A program made the position numbers and the translations under genes. Under the pieces are notes generated by a model. That model did not search any database. It worked only from the letters and a program-made list of their open reading frames with translations, and was not told the origin of the DNA. From contig CAZFBC010000001.1 in the NCBI GenBank assembly GCA_964517245.1, positions 1-36,855 on the forward strand: DNA of 36,855 nt, given 5' to 3'. Positions 1 to 36,855 of the stretch are shown here, one piece after another; the first letter of the stretch is position 1; each line of letters starts with the position of its first letter. The stretch comes from an uncultured Eubacteriales bacterium. GTDB lineage: Bacteria; Acidobacteriota; Aminicenantia; Aminicenantales; Saccharicenantaceae.

Positions 1-55
1 CCGCTCTGGGCGTTCATCTTCACCGACTGGACCTCGTACTTGATGTGGTTGGTCC
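1..55. repeat. 55-bp terminal direct repeat, identical to 36801..36855 (circular-assembly overlap)
   Basis: Nt 1..55 (ccgctctgggcgttcatcttcaccgactgg...ggtcc) are repeated exactly at 36801..36855. A minus-strand reading frame continues across the junction. Confidence 0.9.
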
Positions 56-2499: not shown

Positions 2500-2874
2500 T
2501 CAAGCGTAATCGCCGATCTCGTCGACGTCGGTCGCCGGGAAGTTGACCGAGTTCCCGAGCGAGAGGACCTGGCTCGTGACCGTCCCGACCAGGAGAAGCG
2601 TCGAGCTCCCGGTGATGGTCAAGGCGTAATGCGCGGCCGTTCCCGCGTTCGTGACGCTGAGGCTGTTCTGGGCCGCCAGCGTGATCTTCCGCCCGCTCGA
2701 GTCCCCGTTCGCCTTCGAGAAATCCCCACTGGTCAGGACGTGGTTCACGAGCATATAGGTCGTGTGGGCCTCGGCATAGGTCGTCGGCTGCGTCGAGCAG
2801 ATCGTGAGCTCGGTCGCCGCGGCCAGGACGTCGAGCATGAGGTCGATGGTAGCGTCCGGCATGTACTTGGCCAT
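2500..2874 (-). CDS. hypothetical structural-module protein, paralog A of 27946..28323
   Basis: 124 aa. It shares the blocks CSTQPTTY-EA-TTY, ANGDSSGRK, GTAAH-AL and EIGD with the 125-aa product of 27946..28323. RBS is AAGGAGGAC. Confidence 0.7.
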   Translation of the reverse strand: MAKYMPDATIDLMLDVLAAATELTICSTQPTTYAEAHTTYMLVNHVLTSGDFSKANGDSSGRKITLAAQNSLSVTNAGTAAHYALTITGSSTLLLVGTVTSQVLSLGNSVNFPATDVDEIGDYA

Positions 2875-7758: not shown

Positions 7759-10380
7759 TCACTTGACCACCGTGACGTTCTTCGGGTCCAGGGACACGTA
7801 CCACGTCTGCCCGTACCCGGGATAGACCCTGATGGTATCATAACCCTTGGCGCGAAGGTACCTCGATACCATGTCGCCCCTCGAGAGATTGTAAAGATTT
7901 ACCTGCGGGTCGTTGGCCCAGTCCCAGGCCTTGGCCAGGAGGTTCTGGTTGTAGTCGGCGATCTTCTTGGCCAGGATCCTGAGCTTGAGGTTGGCCGGCC
8001 CGTAATCCGACTCGACCTCGGTACTCGAATAGACGCCCCGGCCGTACACCATCCCGTCACCGACGACGAACCCTTCCCGGCCGATGTGGGCGGCGTTATA
8101 CCCGGACGTGTTGTGGTTGAGCGTCTCCTTGACCTCGCTATCCTTGGCCCAGGCGTCGGCCTCCTCCTTGGTCATGGACGGCTTCCACTGCGGGAGCTCG
8201 GCCTGGACCGGCTCGTCCTGAGGCTCCTCGACCTCGGACTTGTCAACCAGGGGATAGGTCGAGCACCGGCAGTTACAGACGTTCCAGGCGCTGGCCGCCG
8301 GATCGCCCGGGCCGTACATCTGCTCCCCTCCCACCAGGAAGTTCTCGGTCAGCTTGATCTCGACCCCGTCCATCGCCACGTGCTCCGGCCGGCTGGTCGC
8401 CAGCATCTGGCAATTCCAGCCCTTGTACTCGACGTGCTTGGTTTGCTCGTAGCCCCTGAGGTTCGACCAGTTCTCGAGCTTGGTCGACTCGGTCTCGGCC
8501 CAGAGGCGCGACCTGGCCGGACTCATCCAGTCGACCTGCTCCCAGATCTGCTGGGCGAGGTGGTCGATGGTCGACTTCGGGTCGTTCTGCGCGGCCAGGA
8601 GGGTCTCATAGATCTGGTCGATGGTCGAGGCGCAGACCTTGGTCCCGGAATTGAAGACCATCTGCATGAGCTCTTCTTCGAGCTCCGGGGTCAACCGGAA
8701 GGTCCACCCGTCCTTCGTCTCCGGCGCCCCGTCGAAGAGCTCGCCCTTGGCCGCCCGGATGCCGGCCTCCCCCCCGCGCTTGGCCCCGTCGACGTACCAG
8801 GGCTTGAACGCCTTGGCATAAGCCTCGGCCTCGGCCTTCTTGTCGAAGACCGCCTCGAGCGTCACCTGGGAGACCGAGTCGAAGCGCCTCACCGCGGCGT
8901 CGACCTTCTCCGCCTGGCGCCTCATGTACCGGTTCTGGATGATCTTGAAGGACCTCTCGGCCGCCCGGGCCCGGGCGTCGGCCGCCTTCCAGAGCTTGAG
9001 CTTCCTGACGGGGTCGGCCCAGAAGGACGGCTTCGTGCCGGCCGCCTTCCGGGAATGGGCCCGATTTGCCACTCCAGGCCCCGTCAGGGACGTTTTCTCG
9101 CCTTCCCCCTCCTCCTCGCCTTCATCCTCGCCCCCGGCCCCTCCTGCGCCATCCTGGGCCCCTCCGGAGTCCAGGGGAACCAGGGTCGACACGTCCTCGA
9201 GCGAGATCTCCGAGATGGGGACCAGGACCACGTCCCCCTTCTTCCCCAGCGAATCGAACCCCAGCTCGGCCCTCTGCTCGTTGATGGAGAGGCAGCGAGT
9301 CTGGGAGACGTAGACCCACTTCTGGCCCCGGTCCTCCTGGAGGGCGTCGATGGAATCCCGGTCGTAATCGAGCCTCGAGCCGTCCCCGTATGCCGGCACA
9401 AGCCAGGAGTTGAGCTCGTCCCTGACGAGGTCGGCCAGGGGAAGGACCGTCTCCTCGTACAGGGCCCGCCTGGCCTCCTTGTAGTTGTTGTAGGTCGTCG
9501 CCTCGGTATCGCCCAAGAGCATGGACGGCACGCCGAAGATCGAACAGATCTCCCGGAAGGTCATCTTCTGGCCGTTGATCCAGTCCAGGTCCTTGGCCGT
9601 GAGAGAGGTCGGCGTCCAGGTCGCCTTCCCCTCGGTGATGAGGAACCGGCCGGCGTTGAGCGTCCCGGCCTGCTTCGCCTGGAGCTCGGCCTTGAGCTTC
9701 TCGCGGTCGTCCTCCATGAGCTCCGCCTCGAAGTTGAGGACGCCCGAGGGGGTCATGTTGTTCTGGAGGAGGCTTTTGTTCCAGCTCCGGGCATCGTTCG
9801 AGATGTCGACCTGATAGGCCGCGACCTGGACCCTCGAGAGCCCGTACCAATCGTCGAGGGGATTGAACTCGGTGATCTGGAGAACGTCGTCGGCCTTGAG
9901 CTGGACCGGCGTCGACCCGGCGCTATACTGCCAGCCGGCCACGGGTTCGATCCAGTTCCCCGGGATGACCTTCATCCGGTCGGGCCTCAGCGAGTAGAGG
10001 AACTTGGGAGGCTCGCTGAGCGAGATCCCGTGGGCCTTGAGGAGATAGGAGTTCCCGGCCAGGAGGATGAACGAGTAGACCTTCTCCATGAACCGCGTCC
10101 CGCTCTCCCGCTTGTTAGGCCTCGCGAGCAGGGCCAGGAGCGTGCTCTTCTCGAGCTCGTTCCCCGCCTTGTCGAAGTGGACCCAGCGGAGACGGCTCCC
10201 CGTCTTGGCCACGATCGAGACGCTCGCGAACACGGCCGCGCAGTTCTTATACCCGGCCTCGGCCAGCGACGCGTAATCCTTCGGCGTCCAGATCGCCTGG
10301 CCCGGAGCGACGTTCGCGAAGACGGACCGCATGGCCGGATTGTCCTTGCGCCCGAACAGGCTCTTGAGTATAGGCATCAT
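7759..10380 (-). CDS. portal protein fused to a MuF/SPP1 gp7-like minor head domain, with an extra C-terminal domain
   Basis: 873 aa. Residues ~1-415 are HK97-type portal-like and are followed by an acidic GGEDEGEEEGEGE linker. A MuF-like region ends in the motif NCRCSTYP. The last ~170 aa (LNHNTSG..YGRGVYSS...) are of unknown function. Confidence 0.75.
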   Translation of the reverse strand: MMPILKSLFGRKDNPAMRSVFANVAPGQAIWTPKDYASLAEAGYKNCAAVFASVSIVAKTGSRLRWVHFDKAGNELEKSTLLALLARPNKRESGTRFMEKVYSFILLAGNSYLLKAHGISLSEPPKFLYSLRPDRMKVIPGNWIEPVAGWQYSAGSTPVQLKADDVLQITEFNPLDDWYGLSRVQVAAYQVDISNDARSWNKSLLQNNMTPSGVLNFEAELMEDDREKLKAELQAKQAGTLNAGRFLITEGKATWTPTSLTAKDLDWINGQKMTFREICSIFGVPSMLLGDTEATTYNNYKEARRALYEETVLPLADLVRDELNSWLVPAYGDGSRLDYDRDSIDALQEDRGQKWVYVSQTRCLSINEQRAELGFDSLGKKGDVVLVPISEISLEDVSTLVPLDSGGAQDGAGGAGGEDEGEEEGEGEKTSLTGPGVANRAHSRKAAGTKPSFWADPVRKLKLWKAADARARAAERSFKIIQNRYMRRQAEKVDAAVRRFDSVSQVTLEAVFDKKAEAEAYAKAFKPWYVDGAKRGGEAGIRAAKGELFDGAPETKDGWTFRLTPELEEELMQMVFNSGTKVCASTIDQIYETLLAAQNDPKSTIDHLAQQIWEQVDWMSPARSRLWAETESTKLENWSNLRGYEQTKHVEYKGWNCQMLATSRPEHVAMDGVEIKLTENFLVGGEQMYGPGDPAASAWNVCNCRCSTYPLVDKSEVEEPQDEPVQAELPQWKPSMTKEEADAWAKDSEVKETLNHNTSGYNAAHIGREGFVVGDGMVYGRGVYSSTEVESDYGPANLKLRILAKKIADYNQNLLAKAWDWANDPQVNLYNLSRGDMVSRYLRAKGYDTIRVYPGYGQTWYVSLDPKNVTVVK

Positions 10381-19783: not shown

Positions 19784-19882
19784 GCGGTGCTCCTGTTTAT
19801 TTCGGGGACCGGCCGCCCTGCTCTAAGGCTGATACCGGAGGTGCTTCATGTCTGCGGCACACGGACGGCCGGCCCCCGACCA

Positions 19883-20566
19883 TTATTTGCTCGATACCTT
19901 GGCGATCTTCTCGCTCCAGATCCTGACGCCCGGGATCTCGATCCGGCCCTGGAGGTTCCTCACGAGCTTGTCGATGTAGACCTGGTCGGGCTTGCAATAC
20001 TTCCTGGGCACGAGATCCGGCTCGACGACCTCGGACTTCCAGATCGTCTGGACCGACACGCCGGCGGTCGCGACCCTCTCGGGGATCGCGGCCTCGGCCT
20101 CCGATCTGAGCGTGTCGGCCTTGGCCACGGCCCGGTTGATGACCGAGGCGGCCGCCCCGGCGTGGCCCTGCTCGATGAGCTCCGAGGCCTTGTCGACGGC
20201 CTGGTCCTTGACCTTCTCGGCCCGCTCCTTCGCCAGTTGGGCCTCCCGCTCCTTCTGCCTTCTGGCCTCGTCCCGCTCATCCAGGAACCGCGCGACCTTC
20301 GGCCGGAGGACCACGTCGACCTCGTCGGCCACGGCGAGGATCGCCTTCTTGAGCTCGAGGATCGACCGGTGCGCCAGGAAGGCCCGCTTGACCGGCTCGG
20401 CGAAGGCCTCCTCGACCCGCTCCCGGCCGGCCTTCACATCCTTGAGGATCCTGGCCGCCTCGTCGAGGCCGGCCTGGTCGACGACCACGAGGTCCCGGGC
20501 CAGGCCGGCCAGCGTCACGAGCTCCTGCTTGTACGGCGCGGCAAGCGCCAGCTCGTCCCCGCTCAC
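19883..20566 (-). CDS. Gp157 / Gam-like recombination-associated coiled-coil protein
   Basis: 227 aa. It has a long coiled coil and a C-terminal LVPRKYCKPDQVYIDKLVR..IPGVRI resembling the siphovirus Gp157/Mu Gam-like tail. It is coupled to recT by a GTGA overlap. Confidence 0.45.
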   Translation of the reverse strand: MSGDELALAAPYKQELVTLAGLARDLVVVDQAGLDEAARILKDVKAGRERVEEAFAEPVKRAFLAHRSILELKKAILAVADEVDVVLRPKVARFLDERDEARRQKEREAQLAKERAEKVKDQAVDKASELIEQGHAGAAASVINRAVAKADTLRSEAEAAIPERVATAGVSVQTIWKSEVVEPDLVPRKYCKPDQVYIDKLVRNLQGRIEIPGVRIWSEKIAKVSSK

Positions 20567-21980: not shown

Positions 21981-22019
21981 AAAAAAAAAGGGCCGGAGAC
22001 CCTCGTGGATCCCCGGCCC
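21981..22019 (-). terminator. Rho-independent terminator ending the early operon
   Basis: On the minus strand a 10-bp stem (GGGCCGGGGA / UCUCCGGCCC) is followed by nine U. It lies 15 nt after the DUF932-like gene stop. Confidence 0.8.
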
Positions 22020-22034
22020 TTGCGGCCTCCGGTC

Positions 22035-23396
22035 CTACTTGGACCGCTTGCGCTTGCCGATCCCGGCCGCCTCCTTCCGCCCTTCGTTGCACCTGAGGCA
22101 GACGATGTCCGTCCCGGACTTGACCGTCTCGGCCGGCGAGAACTCTCCACAGCAATCCATGCAGAAGTAGAGGTCCCCGTCGTCGGCCTTGGCCTTCTTC
22201 CGGGCCGCGGCCTTCGCGGTCGTGACCTTCTCGGCCCGGACCTTCTTCGACTTGGCCGGCCCCGTCACGACGACCGGCCCGATCCCCGGGACGTTGACCA
22301 GCCCGGCCTTGCGGCCGGCCGGCTTCGACTCGGCCGCGATCTTCTCGCGGATCTTGACCCGGGCCGTCCGGCGGGGCTTCTTCCCGGCCTTCTCCTTCGG
22401 CTTCGCCTCGGGCTTCGCCTTGGCCTTCTTCGCGGCCTTCTCCATGAGCGCCTCGGCCTCGGTCGGCTTGGCCGCCTTCGCGGCCTCCTTGAGCCTGGCC
22501 TGGACCTTGTCCTTCACGGCCTGGACCTCGACCCTCGCGGCCGCCTTGCCCTCGGCCTTGCTCCCGTCGCGGAGCTCCTTGGCCTCGTCCTGGATGATCT
22601 CGAACGGGACCCGGCCCGGCTGCCAGACCGTGGCCGACTGCGCCTCGCCCAGGAGGAGCGGGGCCTCGTGGTCCAGGAAGTCGACCAGGAGCCCGGACCG
22701 CCACGAGTAATCGACCAGATGGGTCTCGTGCCACATCTCGGTGATCGCCCCGTGGAACCCGTGGAGGGTCGGCGTGTACTTCGACCCGGCGCCGAAATAG
22801 AACTCGTGGAACTGGTCGTACTTGGCCGGCGGGATGAGCGGGTACTTCCGGTGCATGGCCGCCACGGCCAGAAGCGCCGCCTGCTCGGCCCTGAGCTCGA
22901 TCTTCTTGAGCCCGTCGTGCCACTCGGCGACCCGGGCGAACCGGCCCCTGAGCGCTCCGAGCGCCTCCTCGGCCATGACCTCAAGCTCGAGCTCCTCGAG
23001 CCCCGCGGTGTGCTTCCGGAACAGGACGAAGTCGCCGCGGAAGACCATGTTGTCGCAGACGAAGACCCGGACGCCGGCGCAGAGGCCGACGCTCATCGAC
23101 TTGTTGAGCCCGTTCCTGATGCCCAGGCTCAAGGTCGTCTCCTCGCCCTTGACGATCTCGCTCCCGATCCGCTCGAGGTCCCAGACCCCGAACATCTTGG
23201 AGCCCGGCCGGATGGCGTACTGCTTCCGCTCGACCTTCCAGTCCAGCTTCGAGCACGCCTGGCCGACCGCGTCGATGACCTGGCCGTGGGTGTACGGCCG
23301 GAAGGTCGCCGTCCTGGCGATCGGCAAGGGCTCGGCCCTGACCACCGCCTCCGGGACGATCGACGTGTCCTTGTGAGATAAAAGAGCGCCTGACAT
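22035..23396 (-). CDS. DUF932-like protein with a Lys/Ala-rich basic tail and a C-terminal zinc ribbon
   Basis: 453 aa. The N-terminal ~270 aa (..LSLGIRNGLNKSMSVGLCAGVRVFVCDNMVF..) resemble DUF932 proteins. A KAAKKAKAKPEAKPKEK histone-H1-like tract and CMDCC...CLRC follow. Confidence 0.6.
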   Translation of the reverse strand: MSGALLSHKDTSIVPEAVVRAEPLPIARTATFRPYTHGQVIDAVGQACSKLDWKVERKQYAIRPGSKMFGVWDLERIGSEIVKGEETTLSLGIRNGLNKSMSVGLCAGVRVFVCDNMVFRGDFVLFRKHTAGLEELELEVMAEEALGALRGRFARVAEWHDGLKKIELRAEQAALLAVAAMHRKYPLIPPAKYDQFHEFYFGAGSKYTPTLHGFHGAITEMWHETHLVDYSWRSGLLVDFLDHEAPLLLGEAQSATVWQPGRVPFEIIQDEAKELRDGSKAEGKAAARVEVQAVKDKVQARLKEAAKAAKPTEAEALMEKAAKKAKAKPEAKPKEKAGKKPRRTARVKIREKIAAESKPAGRKAGLVNVPGIGPVVVTGPAKSKKVRAEKVTTAKAAARKKAKADDGDLYFCMDCCGEFSPAETVKSGTDIVCLRCNEGRKEAAGIGKRKRSK

Positions 23397-23425: not shown

Positions 23426-23510
23426 CCCCGGGCTTGGGACCGGGGTGCCGCATTAGTCAAGGGCGAAAGCCGGAGTTTTTCTTCCGGCTTTCGCCACTCG
23501 ACCCCTCTGC
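23426..23510 (-). ncRNA. twister-like self-cleaving ribozyme motif, copy A (extended P1)
   Basis: RNA: GCAGAGGGG-[UCGAG-U-GGCGAAAGCCGGA..UCCGGCUUUCGCC-CUUGA]-C-UAAUGCG-GC-A-[CCCCGG UCCCAAGC CCGGGG]. Predicted cleavage is between 23455 and 23454. Confidence 0.6.
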
Positions 23511-23512
23511 GA

Positions 23513-23923
23513 TCATCCATACATGCCGGGGAAGTCGACCGAGGCCATCGAAGCCTCGTCGATGAGGGCGGCGACCTCGTCGAACTCCGTCTCGTCGGTC
23601 GCCTCCGGCAGCGCCCCGCCGGCCGAGCGGAGGCCCTCGGTGATCTCGTCGAGCTCCTCCATGGCCGACTGGAGCGCCTCCCCCTTCGACCCGTTCTGGA
23701 AGCTCTCGGGGAGGTTGTCGTACCAGCTCTCGAGCTCGTCGTGGAGCTCCTGGACGGACGACTCGACGGATGAGAGGGTGTTGACGACCCCTTCGACCTT
23801 GTCCCGGTCGATCCCCTTAAGCTCCCCTGCGGCCTGGGCCAGCTCCTCGACGACCTCGTGGGCCGGCCCGAGCTCGGCCAGCGCCTCCTCGAGCCTTCTC
23901 GCCCTTGACACGTGCTTGGCCAT
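23513..23923 (-). CDS. hypothetical acidic helical protein (136 aa)
   Basis: ATG follows the conserved leader ..ACGGAGGUGUUUCA. The protein is very Glu/Asp-rich (..ELHDELESWYDNLPESFQ..). Confidence 0.6.
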   Translation of the reverse strand: MAKHVSRARRLEEALAELGPAHEVVEELAQAAGELKGIDRDKVEGVVNTLSSVESSVQELHDELESWYDNLPESFQNGSKGEALQSAMEELDEITEGLRSAGGALPEATDETEFDEVAALIDEASMASVDFPGMYG

Positions 23924-23947
23924 TGAAACACCTCCGTATGATGCGTG

Positions 23948-24003
23948 CCGGGGGTTGGGACCCGGCCTCCCGCATTAGAGGCCCCGAAGGGCCTCCCCTC
24001 TGC
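23948..24003 (-). ncRNA. twister-like self-cleaving ribozyme motif, copy B (compensated T1 variant)
   Basis: RNA: GCAGAGGGG-[AGGCCC UUCG GGGCCU]-C-UAAUGC-GG-GAGG-[CCGGG UCCCAACC CCCGG]. The loop ends in CC instead of GC, and the junction dinucleotide is GG instead of GC. Predicted cleavage is at 23977|23976. Confidence 0.7.
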
Positions 24004-24076
24004 GATCCTGAGCCTCCCCCTGCCGACCCCTTGGCCGGCCTGAGGAAGGCCCTCCTGGGCCCTCCCGGGCCCGTTC

Positions 24077-24400
24077 TCAGCCGATCTGGACCACCGCCCT
24101 GGTCTCGCGGTCGACCCATCCATGCCAGCGGGAGAAGAAGACGCCTCCGTCCTTGAGCTCGACCACGTAAAGGTCGACGTAGACCGGCTCCGGGCTCTTC
24201 TTCTCGGTCCAGGAGTTGTGGACGTGGCGCCGGAACTCGACCGGGGTCACGGCCCCGAACAGGCCTCCGCACGCCTCGCACGTGACCGTCCAGGCCTTCG
24301 TCGTCCAGTCCTCCTTCTTGACCTCGTGGGGCCGGCCGCACGCCGGACATTCCACGACCGCGAACGGGTACTCGACATTGAAGCCTCGAAGATAGAACAT
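24077..24400 (-). CDS. hypothetical zinc-ribbon protein (107 aa)
   Basis: True start is MFYLRGFNVE, behind GGAGGUG. It carries CPAC...CEAC. The 17 upstream codons of the track ORF are a translation of ribozyme copy C. Confidence 0.6.
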   Translation of the reverse strand: MFYLRGFNVEYPFAVVECPACGRPHEVKKEDWTTKAWTVTCEACGGLFGAVTPVEFRRHVHNSWTEKKSPEPVYVDLYVVELKDGGVFFSRWHGWVDRETRAVVQIG

Positions 24401-24422
24401 AGAAGCACCTCCGTTTTGGATT

Positions 24423-24479
24423 GGCCTGGGCTTGGGACCAGGCCCGCGCATTAGACGGCCTTCCGGCCGTCCCCTCTGC
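24423..24479 (-). ncRNA. twister-like self-cleaving ribozyme motif, copy C
   Basis: RNA: (UA)GCAGAGGG-[GACGGCC GGAA GGCCGUC]-UAAUGC-GC-G-[GGCCUGG UCCCAAGC CCAGGCC]. The upstream stop UAG shares its G with the motif. Predicted cleavage is at 24453|24452. Confidence 0.7.
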
Positions 24480-24913
24480 TAGAGGCTCCCCTTCTCGTTG
24501 AGGAAGTACTCGATCCGGTCGCCGTACTTCCCGACCATCCGGTCCTTGACCTCCGGTCCGAAGGGGACCTTGACCGTCCGGTACTCGCCCTCGCGGTCGC
24601 CCTTGAGCTTGAAGACCGTCCGGTTCTTGGTGAGCCGGGAGAACTCCTTGTCCCGGACCCACTTGTCCAGGAGGTCGCCGAGGAAGAGCTCGAGGTCCAT
24701 CGCCATGACGCCCCAGGGCGTCTCGACGGCGCCGAGGCCCTTACAGTAAGCCTCGAGCGGGCGGGTGTCGAAGTCGTAATCGTTCGACCCGCCGTGCCCT
24801 TCGTTGGAGACCATCCCGACCCGCTTCCCGTCGACGAAGACGGCCGCGTCGAAGAGGGCGGTCTCTTGCGAGAACCGCGCCGAGTAGTGGATGTTCCGAA
24901 GCTCGATCATCAT
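24479..24913 (-). CDS. hypothetical protein (144 aa)
   Basis: ORF MMIELRNIHYSARFSQETALFDAAVFVDGKRVGMVSNEGHGGSNDYDF... follows the conserved leader. No function is assignable. Confidence 0.6.
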   Translation of the reverse strand: MMIELRNIHYSARFSQETALFDAAVFVDGKRVGMVSNEGHGGSNDYDFDTRPLEAYCKGLGAVETPWGVMAMDLELFLGDLLDKWVRDKEFSRLTKNRTVFKLKGDREGEYRTVKVPFGPEVKDRMVGKYGDRIEYFLNEKGSL

Positions 24914-24937
24914 TGAAGCACCTCCTAAGATTTACGC

Positions 24938-24993
24938 GGGAGGGCTTGGGACCTCCCCTGCGCATTAGACGGCCCGAAGGCCGTCCCCTCTGC
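24938..24993 (-). ncRNA. twister-like self-cleaving ribozyme motif, copy D
   Basis: RNA: GCAGAGGG-[GACGGCC UUCG GGCCGUC]-UAAUGC-GC-AG-[GGGAGG UCCCAAGC CCUCCC]. It starts 1 nt after the upstream UGA. Predicted cleavage is at 24967|24966. Confidence 0.7.
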
Positions 24994-24994
24994 A

Positions 24995-25291
24995 TCATCT
25001 GATCCGGTGGACCGCCAGCACGACCTCCCGGTCGCCCTTGCCGGTCCTGCGGATCGCCTGCTGGCCGGGAACGAGGGTCCGGACCCTCCGCGAATCGGCC
25101 GGCCCGAGGACCTCGGAGATCTCCGGGTTCCCGCTCATGGGTTCGTCGGTGTACTCCTGGACCTCGTGACGGACGGCCTCCGGCAAGCGGTCGGGCGACC
25201 AGCGGTGGATCAAGTAGGACCCTCCGGTCGGCCGGTCCGGCCCTTCGCTCAGCCAGTCCATAGGCTCGCCCAGAATGCCAAGTCTCATCAT
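24995..25291 (-). CDS. hypothetical protein (98 aa)
   Basis: ORF MMRLGILGEPMDWLSEGPDRP... follows the conserved leader AAUGGAGGUGCUUCA. Confidence 0.55.
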   Translation of the reverse strand: MMRLGILGEPMDWLSEGPDRPTGGSYLIHRWSPDRLPEAVRHEVQEYTDEPMSGNPEISEVLGPADSRRVRTLVPGQQAIRRTGKGDREVVLAVHRIR

Positions 25292-25314
25292 TGAAGCACC
25301 TCCATTTAAGATTG

Positions 25315-25375
25315 CCGGGGCTTGGGACCCGGCTCGCGCATTACCGGACGGCCCTTAGGCCGCCCGCCCCTCTGC
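25315..25375 (-). ncRNA. twister-like self-cleaving ribozyme motif, copy E
   Basis: RNA: GCAGAGGGG-[CGGGCGGCC UAAG GGCCGUCCG, one G.U]-G-UAAUGC-GC-GAG-[CCGGG UCCCAAGC CCCGG]. Predicted cleavage is at 25343|25342. Confidence 0.7.
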
Positions 25376-25501
25376 TTCCGGCCAGTAGTGCTTGGCGTCA
25401 CGGCGGCGGCGCCAGGCGCCCTTCCGGGCCGCGACCTTCTTCTGCTCCTTGAGGAGGACCCTGAGGATCCTGCGGTCTCGCTCGGTGAGGGTGATCTTCA
25501 C
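25355..25501 (-). CDS. possible small basic ORF (48 aa, GTG start) reading into ribozyme copy E
   Basis: The GTG overlaps the upstream stop as GTGA. The product is VKITLTERDRRILRVLLKEQKKVAARKGAWRRRRDAKHYW.... Its stop UAA is the loop of the copy E P1 hairpin. It is not in the ORF track. Confidence 0.3.
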   Translation of the reverse strand: MKITLTERDRRILRVLLKEQKKVAARKGAWRRRRDAKHYWPEAEGRAA

Positions 25502-25818
25502 GACCGGCCCTCCTGCTCGCGCCTGAGCTCCCGCCTCTCCTCGAAGAGGGCGTCCTCGTCCGGGCCGGCGAAGGCCTCCAGGACCCGGCCCGTCGACTCC
25601 TCGTAGACCGTCCCGGAGACCGGATCGGTCAGGGACCCATCCGCGTCGTCGCGGATGAACTGGTCGACGTCACAGATCTGGCCGCAAGCGGCGCAGACGT
25701 CGACGGGCTCGTCCGGGTCGAGCCAGGACCGGCTCGGCTTGGTCCCTTCGAGGACGTCCGCCCGGCAGCACGCCGACCGCTCGACGAGCTCCTTCCCGCT
25801 TTGGTACATGGTCGCCAT
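25498..25818 (-). CDS. hypothetical Cys-rich acidic protein (106 aa)
   Basis: ORF MATMYQSGKELVERSACCRAD...CAACGQIC... follows the conserved leader ACGGAGGUGUUUCA. Confidence 0.6.
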   Translation of the reverse strand: MATMYQSGKELVERSACCRADVLEGTKPSRSWLDPDEPVDVCAACGQICDVDQFIRDDADGSLTDPVSGTVYEESTGRVLEAFAGPDEDALFEERRELRREQEGRS

Positions 25819-25845
25819 TGAAACACCTCCGTGAAAGATTTGCTC

Positions 25846-25901
25846 GGCCCCGGCTTGGGACGGGACCCGCGCATTACAGGGCCTCAGGCCCTGCCCTCTG
25901 C
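25846..25901 (-). ncRNA. twister-like self-cleaving ribozyme motif, copy F
   Basis: RNA: (UA)GCAGAGGG-[CAGGGCC UGA GGCCCUG]-UAAUGC-GC-G-[GGUCCCG UCCCAAGC CGGGGCC, one U.G]. Predicted cleavage is at 25876|25875. Confidence 0.7.
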
Positions 25902-26131
25902 TACCAGCGACGGAACTTGACCACCTTGGCGTCCCCGTGGGTGACCTCGATCAGGGTCCTGCCCTGGAAGTCGGTCGTCGAGATCCGGAGGCTGCCGGCC
26001 GGGGTCTCGATCCAGACGCACTCGTCGGTCGCCATCCTGAGGTCGATGATGTGCTCGGGCTTCCGCTCGACCATCACCGTCTTGACGACCTTGCTCGCGG
26101 GCTCCATGACGTGGGTTTGAATAAGTTGCAT
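25901..26131 (-). CDS. hypothetical protein (76 aa)
   Basis: True start is MQLIQTHVMEPASK, behind AAGGAGGUGCUUCG. The rest of the 216-aa track ORF reads through ribozymes G and H and upstream genes in wrong frames. Confidence 0.55.
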   Translation of the reverse strand: MQLIQTHVMEPASKVVKTVMVERKPEHIIDLRMATDECVWIETPAGSLRISTTDFQGRTLIEVTHGDAKVVKFRRW

Positions 26132-26158
26132 CGAAGCACCTCCTTGAGATTTGCTCCG

Positions 26159-26213
26159 CTCGGGCTTGGGACCGAGCTTGCGCATTAACCGGCCCGGAGG
26201 CCGGCCCCTCTGC
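26159..26213 (-). ncRNA. twister-like self-cleaving ribozyme motif, copy G
   Basis: RNA: GCAGAGGGG-[CCGGCC UCCG GGCCGG]-U-UAAUGC-GC-AAG-[CUCGG UCCCAAGC CCGAG]. It starts 1 nt after the upstream UAA. Predicted cleavage is at 26187|26186. Confidence 0.7.
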
Positions 26214-26214
26214 G

Positions 26215-26409
26215 TTAAGCGAGAATGGCCTTGAAGTCCTCGAGCAGGCCGGCCGCCGGACCCTGGACCGGCTGGCCCTCCGCCTTCACGACGAAGGCCT
26301 CGAGGCACCAAGCGATGAGGTCGAGCTCGTCCTTCTTGAGCTTGACCTCGACGACGACGTCCTTGACCCGGCCGCCGTCCCGCTCCTTGAACATGCTGAA
26401 GACCATCAT
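26215..26409 (-). CDS. hypothetical protein (64 aa)
   Basis: ORF MMVFSMFKERDGGRVKDVVVEVKL... follows the conserved leader ACGGAGGUGCUUUC. Confidence 0.55.
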   Translation of the reverse strand: MMVFSMFKERDGGRVKDVVVEVKLKKDELDLIAWCLEAFVVKAEGQPVQGPAAGLLEDFKAILA

Positions 26410-26431
26410 GAAAGCACCTCCGTTTAAGATT

Positions 26432-26484
26432 GGACGGGCTTGGGACCGTCCTGCGCATTACACGGCCGAAGCCGTGCCCTCTGC
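26432..26484 (-). ncRNA. twister-like self-cleaving ribozyme motif, copy H
   Basis: RNA: (UA)GCAGAGGG-[CACGGC UUCG GCCGUG]-UAAUGC-GC-A-[GGACGG UCCCAAGC CCGUCC]. The upstream stop UAG shares its G with the motif. Predicted cleavage is at 26460|26459. Confidence 0.7.
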
Positions 26485-26735
26485 TACTTCCGGCGCCGCG
26501 CCTCGGCGACGAGCTTCGCCGTGGCCAGGGCCGCGTCGTACATCCCCGCAACCGTCCGGGGGTCTCTCGCGGCCGCCTTCTTCTCGATCTCCTCCGAGAG
26601 GTAGGAGATGTAGGAGACCGAGGTGCTGTACCCGAGGTCGTCCATCCGCCTCCGGGCCTCCATCATCTCGCGCTCGGTGTCGAAGAGGACCTGGACGACG
26701 CCTTCACCGTTCCGCCAGTAAAGAAGCTCGAACAT
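26484..26735 (-). CDS. hypothetical protein (83 aa), first gene of the early operon
   Basis: ORF MFELLYWRNGEGVVQVLFDTEREMMEARRRMDDLGY... It has the same leader (AAAUCUUCAAGGAGGUGUUUCA-AUG) as the ribozyme-preceded genes, but no ribozyme lies upstream. Confidence 0.6.
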   Translation of the reverse strand: MFELLYWRNGEGVVQVLFDTEREMMEARRRMDDLGYSTSVSYISYLSEEIEKKAAARDPRTVAGMYDAALATAKLVAEARRRK

Positions 26736-27257
26736 TGAAACACCTCCTTGAAGATTTGAGGAACGCTCCTCATTGAAGGGTCGAGCTCGTCGGCGGCGAT
26801 CCGCTCGGCCCTTTAATGAGGAGGCGGACCTTGCGGCCCGCCATCCTCGAGGTGATTCTTTGGTGCTTCTCGCGATGTCCTCGGCCCCGCTCCTTCCAGG
26901 GTTTTGTTCCGAGAGCCTTCCGGCCTCGGCCTGTTTGCTTCGGACATTCGTTCTGCTAAGTCGCCTAGGTTAGGCAGGTTCTCCCGCTTTCTTCCATCCC
27001 GACTTAGCTTTTCAAGGATCTGTCCCGCTGCCCCCCGGGCAGCGTCAACTACACCCCTATACTGCCGGGGTTCTTATAGGAAGTCAATGGGGGGGACGAA
27101 AATAATTGTCTTATAAGTTGCAGATAACGAAGGGCTTACAAAGAATCTTTCGGAGGCGGGGTTTTCCTGGCCTAGTGGATGATAAAAACCGGCTAATCTA
27201 CAGGCTCGACAATTCGGCCTTCACCGGCCGGCCCGAGGCCTCGGTCGGGCGCTCGCG
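26736..27257 (-). promoter_or_regulatory. ~520-bp non-coding boundary between the end of the late module and the start of the early operon
   Basis: This is the only long gap without a credible ORF. It has an AT-rich core at about 27090..27200 and a perfect inverted repeat GCTGCCC-ccc-GGGCAGC at 27029..27045. A weak minus-strand candidate promoter reads TTGACT (27087..27082), N17, CAGTAT (27064..27059). Confidence 0.5.
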
Positions 27258-27602
27258 CTACTCTTCGAACGTGGCCGGAAGCTCGCCCTCCGGCAGCACG
27301 TCGACGGCCTCGAGCCCGATCTCGAACGGAGGCGCCACGGGCCAGCCCGACGTATCGATGCTGAGCTTCGACGCGCCTCCGCCGGCCGGCACCGGATTGG
27401 GCGCGAACTCATGGCCGCCGGCGAGGTTGACGCACCTCAGGAAGATAGGCCCAGCAAATCCATCAAGCGGTTGAACGTCGAGGTTATAAACCGCCAGATC
27501 GCCGCGCTCAGCCTGCAAAGCCAACGGATCAGCCGTAAGAAACGCGCCTGGGGCTGCCAGGACCTCCAGCGTCACGGTCGCGACTCCCTTCTGAAAAGCC
27601 AT
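27258..27602 (-). CDS. hypothetical tail-module protein (114 aa)
   Basis: It is the last ORF of the late module and overlaps the upstream gene as TAATG. The protein is beta-rich and Pro/Gly-rich. Confidence 0.5.
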   Translation of the reverse strand: MAFQKGVATVTLEVLAAPGAFLTADPLALQAERGDLAVYNLDVQPLDGFAGPIFLRCVNLAGGHEFAPNPVPAGGGASKLSIDTSGWPVAPPFEIGLEAVDVLPEGELPATFEE

Positions 27603-27946
27603 TATATCCTCCTCGTCGATCTTCTTACCAGCACCGCAAACCCGCCCTCGAACGTCATGCGCATCCCTGACCGGCCGACCATCTTATCGCCGAAGTAGGT
27701 GACGTTCCGCGGCTTCTCGTGGACCGCGGTCCTGATCGCCTCGGCCAAGTTGACCAGCGTCTTGGATTGCCAGAGCAGGATCTCGACGACCATCGTCGCC
27801 ATCGGCGGCGAATAGCTCGTCTCGAGCTCCTTGAACGCGTAGAGCTGGAAGAGGTGCTTCTCCACGGCCATCGCCCGGAGAAGGTTCTTGAGCCCGGCTT
27901 GGTTCATGTCCTCCACGGCCGCCCTCGCTTTCGCTTCGTCGATCAT
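27602..27946 (-). CDS. hypothetical tail-module protein (114 aa)
   Basis: Internal start MIDEAKARAAVEDMNQAG overlaps the stop of paralog B as TAATG. The protein is helical. Confidence 0.5.
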   Translation of the reverse strand: MIDEAKARAAVEDMNQAGLKNLLRAMAVEKHLFQLYAFKELETSYSPPMATMVVEILLWQSKTLVNLAEAIRTAVHEKPRNVTYFGDKMVGRSGMRMTFEGGFAVLVRRSTRRI

Positions 27947-28323
27947 TAGGATGGATCCCCGATCTCCACGTCCCAAGTCGAGATGGTGATCGTGTTCGAG
28001 GCCGTGATGGAGACGTTATTGCACGTGGTAACGAAGAGGAGCTTCGACGTGGCCGAATCGCTGAGCGCCACATGGGCCGCCGTCCCGGTCGTATCAACAG
28101 TGATGGACGCGTGCTCGTTCGAGGTCAGCTTCCGGCCGCTCGAGTCGCCATTGGCCGGCCCCGTGAAGTCCGTACTGGAGATCGTCTTGATCGCCAGCTT
28201 GTAGGTCGTGACCGCCTCCGTGTACGTGGTCGGCTGCGTCGAGCAGACCGAGATCCTGGTCGCGTTGTTCTTGATGTAATTCAGCGCCGAATCGAGAACA
28301 TCGTCGTGAACCGACTTAGCCAT
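27946..28323 (-). CDS. hypothetical structural-module protein, paralog B of 2500..2874
   Basis: 125 aa. It shares CSTQPTTYTEAVTTY, ANGDSSGRK, TGTAAHVAL and VEIGD with the 124-aa product of 2500..2874. RBS is GAAGGAGGG. Confidence 0.7.
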   Translation of the reverse strand: MAKSVHDDVLDSALNYIKNNATRISVCSTQPTTYTEAVTTYKLAIKTISSTDFTGPANGDSSGRKLTSNEHASITVDTTGTAAHVALSDSATSKLLFVTTCNNVSITASNTITISTWDVEIGDPS

Positions 28324-36349: not shown

Positions 36350-36855
36350 TCAGGCCAGATAGTCGGTCGTCCGCTTGTTGACGAGCTGGGCGTACGGCCG
36401 CACGTAGGACATGCCGGTCGGCGCGGCCGAAGCCTCCTCGGCCACGAGCTCGAGGCCCAGGCTGACGATCTCCTCCCAGCTCGCCTCCGGGCAGAGCATC
36501 CTCATCCGGGGGAAGAAGAGGCTCATCGAATAATAGACCGTCGCGGCGCCGGCCAGGACCGTGTGGGTGTACTTGATGAGGAGCTTCTGGGTCGTCTCGG
36601 CGATGGCGGTCGCGAGGTGGAGGTTGTTGACCGCATCCATGTGCGGGAACTTGAGCTTCACCCGGATATCCGGGTACCCGGCCTCCGCCGACTCCTTGAT
36701 GTCGGAGTAGCCCGAGACCGCGATCCCGTCGTGCCCCGTCCGCTTGTACTCGACGTCGACCCCGGTCACCTCGAGGGCGGTCTCGCTCGCCACGTCCCCG
36801 CCGCTCTGGGCGTTCATCTTCACCGACTGGACCTCGTACTTGATGTGGTTGGTCC
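36350..36855 (-). CDS. major tail (tube) protein, C-terminal part (continues from 605..1 through the circular junction)
   Basis: The frame is continuous with the ORF starting at 605. The track ORF start at 36823 is an internal GTG (..YEVQSVKMNAQSGG..). The stop is at 36350..36352. Confidence 0.6.
   Translation of the reverse strand, partial: TNHIKYEVQSVKMNAQSGGDVASETALEVTGVDVEYKRTGHDGIAVSGYSDIKESAEAGYPDIRVKLKFPHMDAVNNLHLATAIAETTQKLLIKYTHTVLAGAATVYYSMSLFFPRMRMLCPEASWEEIVSLGLELVAEEASAAPTGMSYVRPYAQLVNKRTTDYLA
36801..36855. repeat. 55-bp terminal direct repeat, identical to 1..55
   Basis: This is an exact copy of the first 55 nt of the window. Confidence 0.9.

What the first reader, a model, noticed from the sequence alone, without database searches (positions are those of the whole stretch)
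23426..26484. Eight twister-like self-cleaving ribozyme motifs sit between the genes of an early phage operon
Seen in sequence: eight intergenic elements lie between consecutive small minus-strand genes. In RNA sense they read 5'-(C)GCA-GAGGG-[hairpin 1]-N-UAA-UGC-GC-N(1-4)-[hairpin 2 with 8-nt loop UCCCAAGC]-3'. The single-stranded blocks are essentially invariant. The stems differ between most copies but always stay complementary. Hairpin 2 stems are GGACGG/CCGUCC, CUCGG/CCGAG, GGUCCCG/CGGGGCC, CCGGG/CCCGG, GGGAGG/CCUCCC, GGCCUGG/CCAGGCC and CCCCGG/CCGGGG. Hairpin 1 stems are CACGGC, CCGGCC, CAGGGCC, CGGGCGGCC, GACGGCC and AGGCCC, plus an 18-bp extended version. This pattern indicates selection on RNA pairing rather than on sequence. 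Established knowledge: these invariant blocks are what I recall as the twister ribozyme core. That core has a U^A cleavage step followed by A, a GAGGG internal-loop strand, and a terminal loop UCCCAAGC. The loop CCC pairs with the GGG (pseudoknot T2), and its final GC pairs with the junction GC (pseudoknot T1). From memory, the rice Osa-1-4 twister contains ..GCCGGUCCCAAGCCCGG..AGUGGAGGG... Here P1 is closed by a loop, P2 is UGC/GCA, and the chain is open beyond P4, so this is a permuted, P5-type-like topology. Predicted cleavage sites (U|A, minus strand) are 23455|23454, 23977|23976, 24453|24452, 24967|24966, 25343|25342, 25876|25875, 26187|26186 and 26460|26459. Inference: the polycistronic early transcript would cut itself into single-gene mRNAs. 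Each would end in the P1 hairpin with a 2',3'-cyclic phosphate and begin with a 5'-OH followed by the P4 hairpin, which could stabilise the cistrons and uncouple their expression. I am not aware of an eight-copy in-operon twister array in a complete phage genome with a defined gene context, and the biological role of bacterial and phage twisters is still unknown.
Basis: partly seen in the sequence, partly recalled or inferred. Interest (0 to 1): 0.93.

Follow-up and report, generated by a model that had tools for sequence, protein, structure and literature searches.

The report
Eight twister ribozymes splitting a phage operon
Eight copies of a known self-cutting RNA (the type-P5 twister ribozyme) sit between the small genes of one operon in a complete phage genome, where they probably cut the long transcript into single-gene messages; the same layout recurs in many uncultivated soil phages, so this is a clean example of a known kind rather than a new one.

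Summary
All eight elements match Rfam RF02684 (Twister-P5) at 47–59 bits against a gathering score of 37.6. There is no ninth copy and no other Rfam family in the window.

Across 90 homologous copies (this window plus 29 IMG/VR loci), 20 of 21 pairs show compensatory changes, including both pseudoknots. Copy R7 carries a compensatory swap in pseudoknot T2.

The window is a circular 36.8-kb tailed-phage genome. The ribozymes lie in one unit of about 5 kb that ends at a strong terminator. Each starts at or within a few bases of the upstream stop codon and ends 22–32 nt before a uniform GGAGGUG ribosome-binding site and AUG.

The layout is general: two related phages keep arrays at the same genome position with shuffled genes, and a Vicinamibacterales MAG has 16 copies in 8 kb.

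Most likely function (inferred, not shown): co-transcriptional cutting into mono- or bicistronic mRNAs. Each would end in the P1 hairpin with a cyclic phosphate and begin with a 5'-OH followed by the P4 hairpin, a natural counterpart of the synthetic pRAP design.

Verdict: new member of a known kind, moderate interest.

The parts
27059..27087 (-). Tentative promoter: TTGACT (27087-27082), 17-nt spacer, CAGTAT (27064-27059), inside the only AT-rich non-coding stretch upstream of the operon
   Evidence: Read from the sequence. The strict sigma-70 consensus scan did not pick it up, so it is a lead only.
26736..27058 (-). Leader of about 320 nt before the first gene, with no coding-type ORF and no Rfam match
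   Evidence: It is only weakly alignable to the leader of relative L008.
26758..26771 (-). Plain hairpin GAGGA-GCGU-UCCUC, followed by AAAUCUUCAAGGAGGUGUUUCAAUG. The first gene has the same hairpin-spacer-SD layout as the processed 5' UTRs, but no ribozyme.
26484..26735 (-). Gene 1 (83 aa, no family match). Its TAG stop overlaps the first bases of R1.
26432..26485 (-). R1, twister type P5. Cleavage U26460|A26459. P1 CACGGC-UUCG-GCCGUG; P4 GGACGG/CCGUCC.
   Evidence: Rfam 56.0 bits; parse
26215..26409 (-). Gene 2 (64 aa, no family match)
26158..26214 (-). R2, twister type P5. Cleavage U26187|A26186.
   Evidence: Rfam 59.3 bits
25901..26131 (-). Gene 3 (76 aa, no family match). Its TAG stop overlaps R3.
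25846..25902 (-). R3, twister type P5. Cleavage U25876|A25875.
   Evidence: Rfam 54.3 bits
25355..25818 (-). Genes 4 and 5 (106 aa and 48 aa). They overlap by GTGA (translationally coupled) with no ribozyme between them. The stop of gene 5 (25357-25355) lies in the P1 loop of R4. Homologues occur in L008 and L017.
25314..25376 (-). R4, twister type P5. Cleavage U25343|A25342. P1 has 9 bp.
   Evidence: Rfam 49.0 bits
24995..25291 (-). Gene 6 (98 aa, no family match)
24938..24994 (-). R5, twister type P5. Cleavage U24967|A24966. P1 has a UUCG loop.
   Evidence: Rfam 57.4 bits
24479..24913 (-). Gene 7 (144 aa, no family match). Its TAG stop overlaps R6.
24423..24480 (-). R6, twister type P5. Cleavage U24453|A24452. 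P1 has a GGAA loop.
   Evidence: Rfam 56.8 bits
24077..24400 (-). Gene 8 (107 aa). It has a zinc-ribbon with weak sub-threshold Lar-like and Zn_ribbon hits, and a homologue in L008. A 73-nt G-rich spacer follows before R7.
23947..24004 (-). R7, twister type P5. Cleavage U23977|A23976. The junction is GG and the loop is UCCCAACC, a compensatory C:G to G:C swap in pseudoknot T2.
   Evidence: Rfam 59.1 bits
23513..23923 (-). Gene 9 (136 aa; phrog_4068, unknown function). Homologues occur in L008 and L017.
23426..23511 (-). R8, twister type P5. Cleavage U23455|A23454. P1 is extended by a 13-bp perfect helix, and P2 has 4 bp.
   Evidence: Rfam 47.4 bits; fold z-score -5.2
22035..23396 (-). Gene 10 (453 aa, no family match), the last gene of the unit. 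Its homologue in L038 (the same contig as L017) is also directly preceded by a Twister-P5.
21988..22021 (-). Intrinsic terminator (15-bp stem with 10 G-C pairs, then U7) that ends the transcription unit

Best explanation
The eight elements are genuine type-P5 twister self-cleaving ribozymes embedded in one phage transcription unit of about 5 kb. That unit runs from the non-coding region near 27.1 kb to the terminator at 21.99 kb.

As RNA polymerase finishes each P4 hairpin, the ribozyme folds (P2, P1, P4, pseudoknots T1 and T2) and cuts at U|A. This converts the polycistronic transcript into seven monocistronic mRNAs, one bicistronic mRNA (the two overlapping genes 25355-25818), and a last mRNA for the 453-aa gene.

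Because the chain is open at the P5 position, the two halves of each ribozyme stay with different messages. The upstream mRNA ends 12-60 nt after its stop codon in a G+C-rich P1 hairpin, then one U with a 2',3'-cyclic phosphate. The downstream mRNA begins 5'-OH-AAUGC(G)GC, then the P4 hairpin, an A/U/C-rich spacer (AAAUCUUAAA-like), GGAGGUG and AUG, giving a uniform 5' UTR of 50-58 nt.

After the cut only P2 (3-4 bp) and T1 (3 bp) hold the halves together, so they should separate.

The proposed pay-off has three parts. Each small gene gets its own message with hairpin-protected ends. Each gets an identical translation-initiation region insulated from the neighbouring coding sequence. Expression no longer depends on translational coupling or on decay of the neighbours.

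Shown here: family membership, covariation, the stop-ribozyme-SD geometry, and conservation of the array in related phages. Inferred: catalytic activity of these copies, co-transcriptional timing, end chemistry, and the effects on stability and translation.
For: Identity
- All eight copies score 47.4-59.3 bits against a gathering score of 37.6 for RF02684, full length, with every strongly conserved core position present.
- On 90 copies, 96.3% of cells are paired against 70.9% in shuffles. 20 of 21 pairs have changes on both sides, including T1 (G:C to C:G, U:A, A:U) and T2 (13 A:U, 6 G:C swaps). Slid controls give 31-44% paired.
- With the register corrected, T2 dinucleotide types are GC:GC 67, AC:GU 10, AG:CU 3 and GG:CC 3. 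R7 is one of the GG:CC cases.
- Minimum-free-energy folds in native context recover P2, P1 and P4 in 7 of 8 copies.

Layout
- All eight are co-oriented with the genes.
- Upstream stop codons sit at -1 to -4 of the ribozyme 5' end in 6 of 8. In R4 the stop is inside the P1 loop, and R7 follows a 73-nt spacer.
- SD plus AUG follow 22-32 nt after the 3' end.
- No terminator-like site lies inside the array, and a strong one follows the last gene.
- The only junction without a ribozyme is an overlapping GTGA gene pair. The same rule holds in relatives L008 and L017.

Generality
- Of 87 evaluable copies, 63 have a stop codon within 12 nt upstream (null 9.7%), 72 have SD plus a start within 45 nt (null 14.8%) and 54 have both (null 2%). 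Arrays are always co-oriented.
- Relatives L008 and L017/L038 (27-66% amino-acid identity in flanking genes) keep 5 and 7 copies at the same genome position, with different stems.
- L037 has 16 copies in 8 kb, 15 of them followed by SD plus AUG.

Mechanistic precedent
- The synthetic pRAP system puts a twister between cistrons in E. coli and obtains monocistronic mRNAs with balanced expression. It worked only after a stem-loop was added just 5' of the cut to protect the upstream cistron (PMC9872166). The type-P5 permutation supplies that stem-loop (P1) by itself.
- Clustered hammerheads flanking genes in prophages cleave roughly 2-kb native transcripts in vitro (PMC3088659).
Against: - No experiment bears on these copies. 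Activity, kinetics and end chemistry are assumed from family membership.
- Six of the eight copies have only three Watson-Crick pairs in P2. Crystal structures show four, and changing that number was suggested to disturb the active site (PMC5408937). However, 59 of 90 phage copies share this register, so it is a common natural form.
- The host is unknown. In bacteria with RNase J a 5'-OH end can be a decay signal, as for the glmS ribozyme (Collins 2007, cited in PMC6765202), so cleavage could shorten rather than lengthen mRNA life.
- Predicted SD accessibility is modest (0.09-0.5) and does not change on cleavage.
- The promoter is not established.
- More distant phages with a homologue of the 453-aa gene have no ribozymes and no substitute element, so the arrangement is dispensable.
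Confidence: 0.7

Rival explanations
1. The ribozymes are active, but cleavage mainly limits message lifetime. Cutting removes the 5'-triphosphate and exposes 5'-OH ends to 5'-exonucleolytic decay (RNase J-type hosts). The small genes would then be expressed only in a short burst and shut off quickly.
For: The operon sits where a first-expressed unit would lie. It follows the only large non-coding region and consists of small genes with no family match, upstream of the RecT/exonuclease module. The 5'-OH product of the glmS ribozyme is degraded by RNase J1 (Collins 2007, cited in PMC6765202). MAG hits for this ribozyme type are in Acidobacteriota, Gemmatimonadota, Planctomycetota and similar groups, not E. 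coli-like hosts.
Against: Both new ends are built as stable hairpins. P1 is -9.7 to -34 kcal/mol, with UUCG or GNRA loops in four copies, and P4 is 6-7 bp with T2 able to tie down part of the 5' tail. That looks like protection. In pRAP, hairpin-ended twister products are stable and well translated. All cistrons carry a very strong, identical SD, which fits maximal rather than throttled output.
Confidence: 0.12
2. The ribozyme plus leader is chiefly a module boundary. The roughly 25 invariant core bases and the shared AAAUC..GGAGGUG leader give short homologies at every gene junction. Recombination between phages can then swap, add or delete single-gene cassettes. RNA cleavage would be secondary, or would only keep any new combination expressible.
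For: Related phages keep the array but with different and reordered genes. The homologue of gene 9 lies before that of gene 8 in L008, and genes 1-3, 6 and 7 have no counterpart there. Copy number differs between relatives (8, at least 5, and 7). L037 has two copies 59 nt apart with no gene between them, as a deletion would leave. A 73-nt non-coding remnant precedes R7, where L008 has a 106-aa ORF.
Against: Homology for recombination needs sequence, not structure. Yet P1, P4, T1 and T2 are maintained by compensatory changes, and each copy keeps its own cis-compatible P2/T1 (84 of 90 copies). That shows selection on the folded RNA. Stems differ between copies, which reduces homology. The strict placement between stop codon and SD is an RNA-level feature.
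Confidence: 0.1
3. The gene-length RNAs released between two ribozymes are re-joined end to end. Their 5' end carries the 3' half of one twister and their 3' end the 5' half of the next. The ends could dock through P2 and T1 and be sealed, by the reverse reaction or by host RtcB, giving circular, exonuclease-resistant, translatable mRNAs (a natural counterpart of the engineered Tornado design, recalled from my own knowledge).
For: In this window P2 (GCA/UGC) and T1 (GGG/CCC) are identical in all eight copies, so every internal RNA has mutually compatible half-ribozymes. The ends would have the chemistry RtcB uses (5'-OH and 2',3'-cyclic phosphate; established knowledge).
Against: Across arrays where P2 or T1 vary, the neighbouring halves that would have to dock are compatible in only 6 of 21 informative junctions. 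The cis halves are compatible in 84 of 90 copies, so selection acts on the cis fold only. No RtcB, RNA ligase or kinase was found among the 40 window proteins scanned with Pfam. The first and last RNAs of the unit could not circularise this way.
Confidence: 0.04
4. The elements are non-catalytic structured repeats: intergenic hairpin repeats, protein-binding sites or attenuators that merely resemble twisters.
For: Cleavage has not been assayed. Six copies have a 3-bp P2.
Against: All eight exceed the curated family threshold by 10-22 bits, with every conserved core nucleotide present. Both catalytically essential pseudoknots covary. No U-tract follows P1 or P4, so they are not intrinsic terminators. 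A simple stabilising hairpin would not need about 25 invariant unpaired bases.
Confidence: 0.04

Closest known systems
Type-P5 twister ribozyme (Rfam RF02684, clan CL00120; class described by Roth et al. 2014, cited in PMC5408937 and PMC10085705)
   Same: Same core sequence, the same P1/P2/P4 helices, the same T1 and T2 pseudoknots, the same circular permutation with the chain open at the P5 position, and the same U|A cleavage step. All eight copies are above the family threshold.
   Different: Nothing categorical. No P5 helix forms from the flanks. Six copies have a 3-bp rather than 4-bp P2. R8 has a long P1 insert. What this case adds is a complete, circular phage genome with a defined transcription unit.
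Clustered hammerhead ribozymes flanking single genes in prophages (Perreault et al. 2011, PMC3088659)
   Same: Several co-oriented self-cleaving ribozymes flank individual genes or short gene blocks of variable identity in phage DNA. The proposed role is processing of long phage transcripts into single-gene mRNAs, and cleavage of native polycistronic fragments was shown in vitro.
   Different: A different ribozyme class. The published examples have two or three ribozymes, whereas this array has eight (up to 16 in L037) and is of one type only: 51 hits in 14 loci were all Twister-P5. The stop-ribozyme-SD packing is tighter and more regular here.
pRAP, ribozyme-assisted polycistronic co-expression (synthetic; PMC9872166), and ribozyme insulators of the RiboJ type (the latter from my own knowledge)
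   Same: A twister sits between cistrons just upstream of a standard ribosome-binding site. Co-transcriptional cutting gives monocistronic mRNAs with identical 5' UTRs, and a stem-loop at the new 3' end is needed for stability of the upstream cistron.
   Different: pRAP is engineered, uses a twister that cuts at its own 5' edge, and needs an added stem-loop. The natural type-P5 permutation cuts in its middle, so its own P1 becomes the 3' hairpin and its own P4 the 5' hairpin.
glmS ribozyme (5' UTR, Gram-positive bacteria)
   Same: A self-cleaving ribozyme in a bacterial mRNA whose 5'-OH product end determines the fate of the message (cited in PMC6765202).
   Different: glmS is ligand-dependent, occurs as a single copy, lies in a 5' UTR, and its cleavage destabilises the message. 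The twister arrays show no sign of a ligand pocket and sit between genes.

Membership tests
Twister ribozyme, type P5 (Rfam RF02684) | Covariance-model score at or above the curated gathering score (37.6 bits) | tested here: met
   Eight of eight copies, 47.4-59.3 bits, full-length matches 1-58/58
Twister ribozyme, type P5 (Rfam RF02684) | Helices P1, P2 and P4 maintained by compensatory change | tested here: met
   On 90 copies, P1 has 7 of 7 pairs, P4 5 of 6 and P2 3 of 3 with changes on both sides. 96.3% of cells are paired against 70.9% shuffled and 31-44% slid. Within the window there are 7 different P1 and 7 different P4 sequences, all complementary.
Twister ribozyme, type P5 (Rfam RF02684) | Double pseudoknot: T1 (loop L4 CCC with L1 GGG) and T2 (junction GC with loop GC) | tested here: met
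   All 3 T1 pairs and both T2 pairs covary. T2 types are GC:GC 67, AC:GU 10, AG:CU 3 and GG:CC 3. Window copy R7 carries GG:CC.
Twister ribozyme, type P5 (Rfam RF02684) | About ten near-invariant nucleotides in L1 and L4, including the A 3' of the scissile bond and the conserved guanine of L1 (PMC5408937) | tested here: met
   GAGGG, U|AA and UCCCAAGC are identical in all copies, except for the compensated G to C in the R7 loop
Twister ribozyme, type P5 (Rfam RF02684) | Circular permutation with P1 closed by a loop and the chain ends at the P5 position | tested here: met
   The order P2(5')-L1-P1 hairpin-U|AA-P2(3')-T2-P4 hairpin holds in all copies. The optional P5 helix itself is absent: flank pairing is -3.97 against a null of -4.12 kcal/mol.
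Twister ribozyme, type P5 (Rfam RF02684) | P2 of four Watson-Crick pairs, as in the crystal structures (PMC5408937) | tested here: inconclusive
   R8 has 4 bp, R7 probably 4, and R1-R6 have 3 bp with T2 directly adjacent. 59 of 90 phage copies share the 3-bp register, and the Rfam consensus shows the fourth pair in lower case, so this is a common natural subtype whose activity has not been measured.
Twister ribozyme, type P5 (Rfam RF02684) | Site-specific self-cleavage giving 2',3'-cyclic phosphate and 5'-OH ends | not testable with these tools
   Needs in vitro transcription or end-specific RNA-seq
Clustered phage ribozymes that process polycistronic transcripts (arrangement of PMC3088659) | Several co-oriented ribozymes flanking single genes or short gene blocks of variable identity inside phage DNA | tested here: met
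   Eight copies lie in one unit of a tailed-phage genome. The array is kept with shuffled genes in L008 and L017.
Clustered phage ribozymes that process polycistronic transcripts (arrangement of PMC3088659) | The transcript is actually cut at each ribozyme | not testable with these tools
   No transcript data for this phage
Intrinsic (Rho-independent) terminators | G+C-rich hairpin followed directly by a U-run | tested here: not met
   P1 is followed by UAAUGC and P4 by AAUC-type spacers. The scan finds no terminator-like site inside 23426-26485, only one at 22021-21988 after the last gene.

The most novel reading that the evidence does not exclude
In this phage all eight ribozymes share identical inter-half contacts (P2 GCA/UGC, T1 GGG/CCC). 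Every RNA released between two cuts therefore carries, at its two ends, halves that can reassemble into a complete twister active site. That would hold a 5'-OH next to a 2',3'-cyclic phosphate. These gene-length RNAs could be closed, by the reverse reaction or by host RtcB, into circular, exonuclease-proof, SD-driven translatable mRNAs. Natural circular mRNAs have not, to my knowledge, been reported for a DNA phage. The evidence does not exclude this for the window, but the family-wide test speaks against it being selected: neighbouring halves are compatible at only 6 of 21 informative junctions.
Probability: 0.04. Interest if true: 0.9.

Novelty: new member of a known kind. Interest (0 to 1): 0.45.

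Why it matters
The biological role of bacterial and phage twister ribozymes was still described as unknown in 2019 and 2023 (PMC6765202, PMC10085705).

This window offers a compact, complete test bed:
- a circular 36.8-kb genome;
- one roughly 5-kb unit with a clear terminator;
- eight ribozymes with exact predicted cut sites;
- an internal control junction (the overlapping gene pair) that lacks a ribozyme.

The comparison made here adds a general rule that can be tested. In uncultivated soil phages and prophages, type-P5 twisters sit in a fixed order: stop codon, ribozyme, 11-35 nt, SD, start codon. They form one-type arrays of up to 16. This particular permutation leaves a hairpin on both new RNA ends, which is the solution synthetic biologists reached independently in pRAP.

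If cleavage and its effect on expression are confirmed, these arrays would be a natural operon-splitting device and a source of orthogonal insulator parts.

It is not a new class of element. The arrangement has a published hammerhead precedent.

Tried and rejected
- **Ninth or degenerate copy, or another ribozyme class in the window:** none at Rfam E<=1 and none in an unfiltered search with my own model. The extra GCAGAGGG at 9277 is inside the portal gene and has no loop motif.
- **P5 helix from the flanks:** not present.
- **Cleavage unmasks the SD:** rejected. The predicted unpaired probability of GGAGG is the same in uncleaved contexts (0-120 nt of upstream sequence) and in the 3' product.
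- **Selected end-to-end reassembly or circularisation:** not supported family-wide.
- **Terminator function:** no U-tracts.
- **Function of the operon genes:** PHROGs, Pfam and NCBIfam give nothing usable. Only phrog_4068 (unknown function) and sub-threshold zinc-ribbon/Lar hits appear.
- **RNA-repair enzymes in the phage:** none among the 40 proteins scanned with Pfam.
- **Close GenBank phage relatives:** none; only about 4% of the query is covered at about 70% identity.
- **Source of the window:** exact-protein look-ups found nothing.
- **A substitute element in more distant phages that share the 453-aa gene (L039-L041):** no Rfam hit at E<=0.1 and no intergenic repeat family.
- **Primary papers:** Roth 2014, Weinberg 2015 and Felletti 2017 are not held in the library. 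What they say about type-P5 gene context could not be checked. Their content is taken from reviews that cite them.
- **MAFFT alignment of the eight copies:** it mis-aligns the variable P1, so model-based alignment was used instead.

Full report
**Observation**

The stems it quoted are correct: there are seven different P1 and seven different P4 sequences among the eight copies, all complementary.

The motif words are essentially confined to these elements. TCCCAAGC occurs 7 times in 36.8 kb, all inside elements, and 8 of the 9 occurrences of GCAGAGGG are inside elements.

**Identity**

A scan of the whole window against Rfam 15 gives exactly eight matches above gathering score. All are to RF02684, the type-P5 twister ribozyme, at 47.4-59.3 bits (threshold 37.6) with E-values of 4.8e-10 to 5.6e-07. 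All are full-length and all are on the minus strand. Relaxing to E<=1 adds no further twister and no other ribozyme family. There are no tRNAs.

I built a covariance model from five window copies. It recovered all eight copies and found 82 more in 29 IMG/VR loci that had been fetched with a core-sequence pattern.

On this 90-sequence alignment:
- 96.3% of cells form standard pairs, against 70.9% in column shuffles and 31-44% when partners are slid.
- 20 of 21 pairs show changes on both sides.
- Pseudoknot T1 (L1 GGG with loop CCC) changes to C:G, U:A and A:U.
- Pseudoknot T2 (junction GC with loop GC) changes 13 times to A:U and 6 times to G:C.

With the register corrected, T2 dinucleotide types are GC:GC 67, AC:GU 10, AG:CU 3 and GG:CC 3. 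Window copy R7, with junction GG and loop UCCCAACC, is one of the GG:CC cases, so the one deviation from the core in the window is compensated.

By the published nomenclature, CCC:GGG is T1 and GC:GC is T2 (PMC5408937).

No P5 helix forms from the flanks, so the chain is simply open at that position.

One caveat concerns P2. Six window copies have three Watson-Crick pairs, whereas the crystal structures have four. However, 59 of 90 phage copies share that register.

**Setting**

The first 55 bases of the window repeat at its end, so this is a circular assembly of 36,800 bp.

The window encodes small and large terminase subunits, a portal fused to a Mu-F-like domain, a prohead protease, an HK97-type capsid protein and large tail and fibre proteins. 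It also encodes RecT plus an exonuclease, an Hjc-type resolvase, ParB-like nucleases, a C5 methyltransferase and an NlpC/P60 enzyme. With one possible small exception, all genes are on the minus strand. No close relative exists among GenBank phages.

The ribozyme operon follows the only sizeable non-coding, AT-richer stretch, which contains a promoter-like TTGACT-N17-CAGTAT. That site was read by eye and was not found by the consensus scan. The operon ends at a strong intrinsic terminator at 22021-21988, right after the 453-aa gene.

The unit holds eleven genes. Ten are small, and none has an informative family match. 'Early operon' is therefore a reasonable reading of position and content, but it is not demonstrated.

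**Anatomy of the junctions**

- Six ribozymes begin 1-4 nt after the first base of the upstream stop codon. In three of these the stop is a TAG whose AG is part of the element.
- In R4 the stop codon lies in the P1 loop.
- R7 is preceded by a 73-nt G-rich spacer.
- Each ribozyme is followed after 22-32 nt by AUG, preceded by an A/U/C-rich spacer (AAAUCUUAAA-like) and the same strong SD, GGAGGUG.
- After cleavage the 5' UTRs would be 50-58 nt long.
- The first gene of the unit has the same spacer and SD preceded by a plain hairpin instead of a ribozyme.
- The one junction without a ribozyme is an overlapping GTGA gene pair.

**Comparison with related sequences**

Two IMG/VR contigs are relatives of this phage: L008, and L017/L038 (the same contig). 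They share 27-66% amino-acid identity over tail genes, RecT, the exonuclease and the 453-aa protein. They keep arrays of five and seven Twister-P5 copies at the same genome position. Their small genes differ or are reordered, and their stems differ. In them too, overlapping gene pairs lack a ribozyme. More distant phages that share only the 453-aa gene have no ribozyme and no substitute element.

Many unrelated viral contigs hold co-oriented arrays of 4-9 copies. All 51 Rfam hits in the 14 loci scanned were Twister-P5, so the arrays are of one type.

In GTDB genomes the pattern occurs only in MAGs of soil-type phyla. One Vicinamibacterales chromosome carries 16 copies above threshold in 8 kb, 15 of them followed by SD plus AUG within 8-21 nt.

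Over 87 evaluable copies:
- 63 have the stop codon of an ORF of at least 45 codons within 12 nt upstream (null 9.7%).
- 72 have SD plus a start within 45 nt downstream (null 14.8%).
- 54 have both (null 2%).

The order stop codon, ribozyme, SD, start codon is thus a property of phage type-P5 twisters in general, not of this genome alone.

**How it most likely works**

From family membership and topology, each ribozyme should cut at U|A soon after its P4 is transcribed.

In the P5 permutation the cut falls between two self-contained hairpins. The upstream message therefore ends in the P1 hairpin, followed by one U carrying a 2',3'-cyclic phosphate. P1 stability is -9.7 to -34 kcal/mol, and four copies have UUCG or GNRA loops. 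The downstream message starts with 5'-OH-AAUGC, followed by the P4 hairpin.

Only P2 (3-4 bp) and T1 (3 bp) bridge the halves, so release should be easy.

Established knowledge of bacterial mRNA decay suggests these ends would resist attack. A 3' hairpin with almost no tail and no 3'-OH is a poor substrate for 3' exonucleases and for poly(A) polymerase. A structured 5' end without a monophosphate is a poor RNase E substrate.

The synthetic pRAP system supports this. Twisters placed between cistrons in E. coli gave monocistronic mRNAs and balanced expression only after a stem-loop was added just 5' of the cut (PMC9872166). The natural type-P5 form has that stem-loop built in.

I therefore favour an operon-splitting and insulating role (confidence 0.7 for the whole chain, and higher for identity alone). 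Cleavage, timing, end chemistry and the effect on expression are all inferred.

**Rivals and negative results**

- *Shut-off role through 5'-OH-triggered decay.* This is possible in RNase J hosts, by analogy with glmS, but it fits poorly with hairpin-protected ends and maximal SDs.
- *Cassette-boundary or recombination role.* Gene shuffling between relatives, a gene-less 59-nt interval between two copies in L037, and the 73-nt remnant before R7 suggest it. It cannot explain selection on pairing and pseudoknots.
- *Circularisation of the released RNAs by reassembly of neighbouring half-ribozymes.* This is not excluded here, because all eight copies share P2 and T1. Where these vary in other arrays, neighbouring halves match at only 6 of 21 informative junctions, while cis halves match in 84 of 90 copies.
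- *SD unmasking by cleavage.* Predicted accessibility does not change.
- *Terminator function.* There are no U-tracts.

**Known or new**

The element class is known and curated.

Clustered ribozymes flanking single genes in prophages, with the proposal that long phage transcripts are cut into single-gene mRNAs, were described for hammerheads in 2011 and shown to cleave in vitro (PMC3088659). Twisters and hammerheads are reported to be enriched near Mu-like phage genes and near other ribozymes, 'although the biological reason is still unknown' (PMC10085705; see also PMC6765202).

I found no paper in the held library that describes type-P5 arrays of this size or the stop-ribozyme-SD rule. The primary twister papers were not available to check.

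**Verdict**

The case is moderately interesting as an unusually clean, complete and testable example. It also offers a rationale for why the P5 permutation is the one used between genes.

Noticed in passing
window 1-55 and 36801-36855: The first 55 bases are identical to the last 55. This is the signature of a circular assembly, so the window is a complete genome of 36,800 bp.
   Followed up: yes
window 24005-24076 (-): A 73-nt G-rich non-coding spacer (GGGCCC-GGGA-GGGCCC hairpin and more) lies between the stop of gene 24077-24400 and R7. It is the only long stop-to-ribozyme gap. Relative L008 has a 106-aa ORF at the equivalent place, so it may be the remnant of a lost gene.
   Followed up: partly
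window 23456-23502 (-), inside R8: P1 of R8 is extended by a perfect 13-bp helix with an A-rich 8-nt loop. The fold z-score is -5.2. Long P1 inserts recur in other arrays (L008:8013-8093, L027, L024:9646-9718). A second function, such as an RNase III site or protein binding, is not excluded.
   Followed up: no
window 26736-27258 (-): A leader of about 320 nt plus an AT-richer region precede the operon. No coding-type ORF, no Rfam match and no consensus sigma-70 promoter were found, apart from TTGACT-N17-CAGTAT read by eye. In relative L008 the first ribozyme sits in this leader, whereas the window has only a plain hairpin before the first SD.
   Followed up: partly
window 19837-19979 (+): The only plus-strand ORF with coding-type composition and a strong start (43 aa) carries the operon-type leader GGAGGTGCTTCATG. 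It lies antisense to the 3' end of the exonuclease gene.
   Followed up: no
L037 1135-7796 (Vicinamibacterales MAG chromosome OY762226.1): There are 16 Twister-P5 copies above the Rfam threshold in 8 kb, all co-oriented, and 15 of them are followed by SD plus AUG within 8-21 nt. Two copies are only 59 nt apart with no gene between them. This array is larger than the one in the window, in a 5.85-Mb chromosome-level MAG assembly.
   Followed up: partly
alignment A4 (window plus L001-L029): Two registers of P2 coexist, sometimes in the same array: 59 copies with 3 bp and T2 directly adjacent, and 21 with 4 bp. Several copies in L015 and L017 have C instead of U 5' of the scissile bond. L004 and L022 arrays mix different T1 or P2 sequences between neighbouring copies.
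   Followed up: partly
window 27946-28323 (-) and 2500-2874 (-): Two 124-125-aa proteins of the window both match the same protein of relative L008 (65.6% and 42.7% identity). They are therefore paralogues placed about 11 kb apart on the circular map, at either end of the tail region. Their function is unknown.
   Followed up: no
window 7759-10380 (-): The portal protein is fused to a Phage_Mu_F-like domain. The literature reports the strongest ribozyme associations for genes of Mu-like phages (PMC10085705).
   Followed up: no
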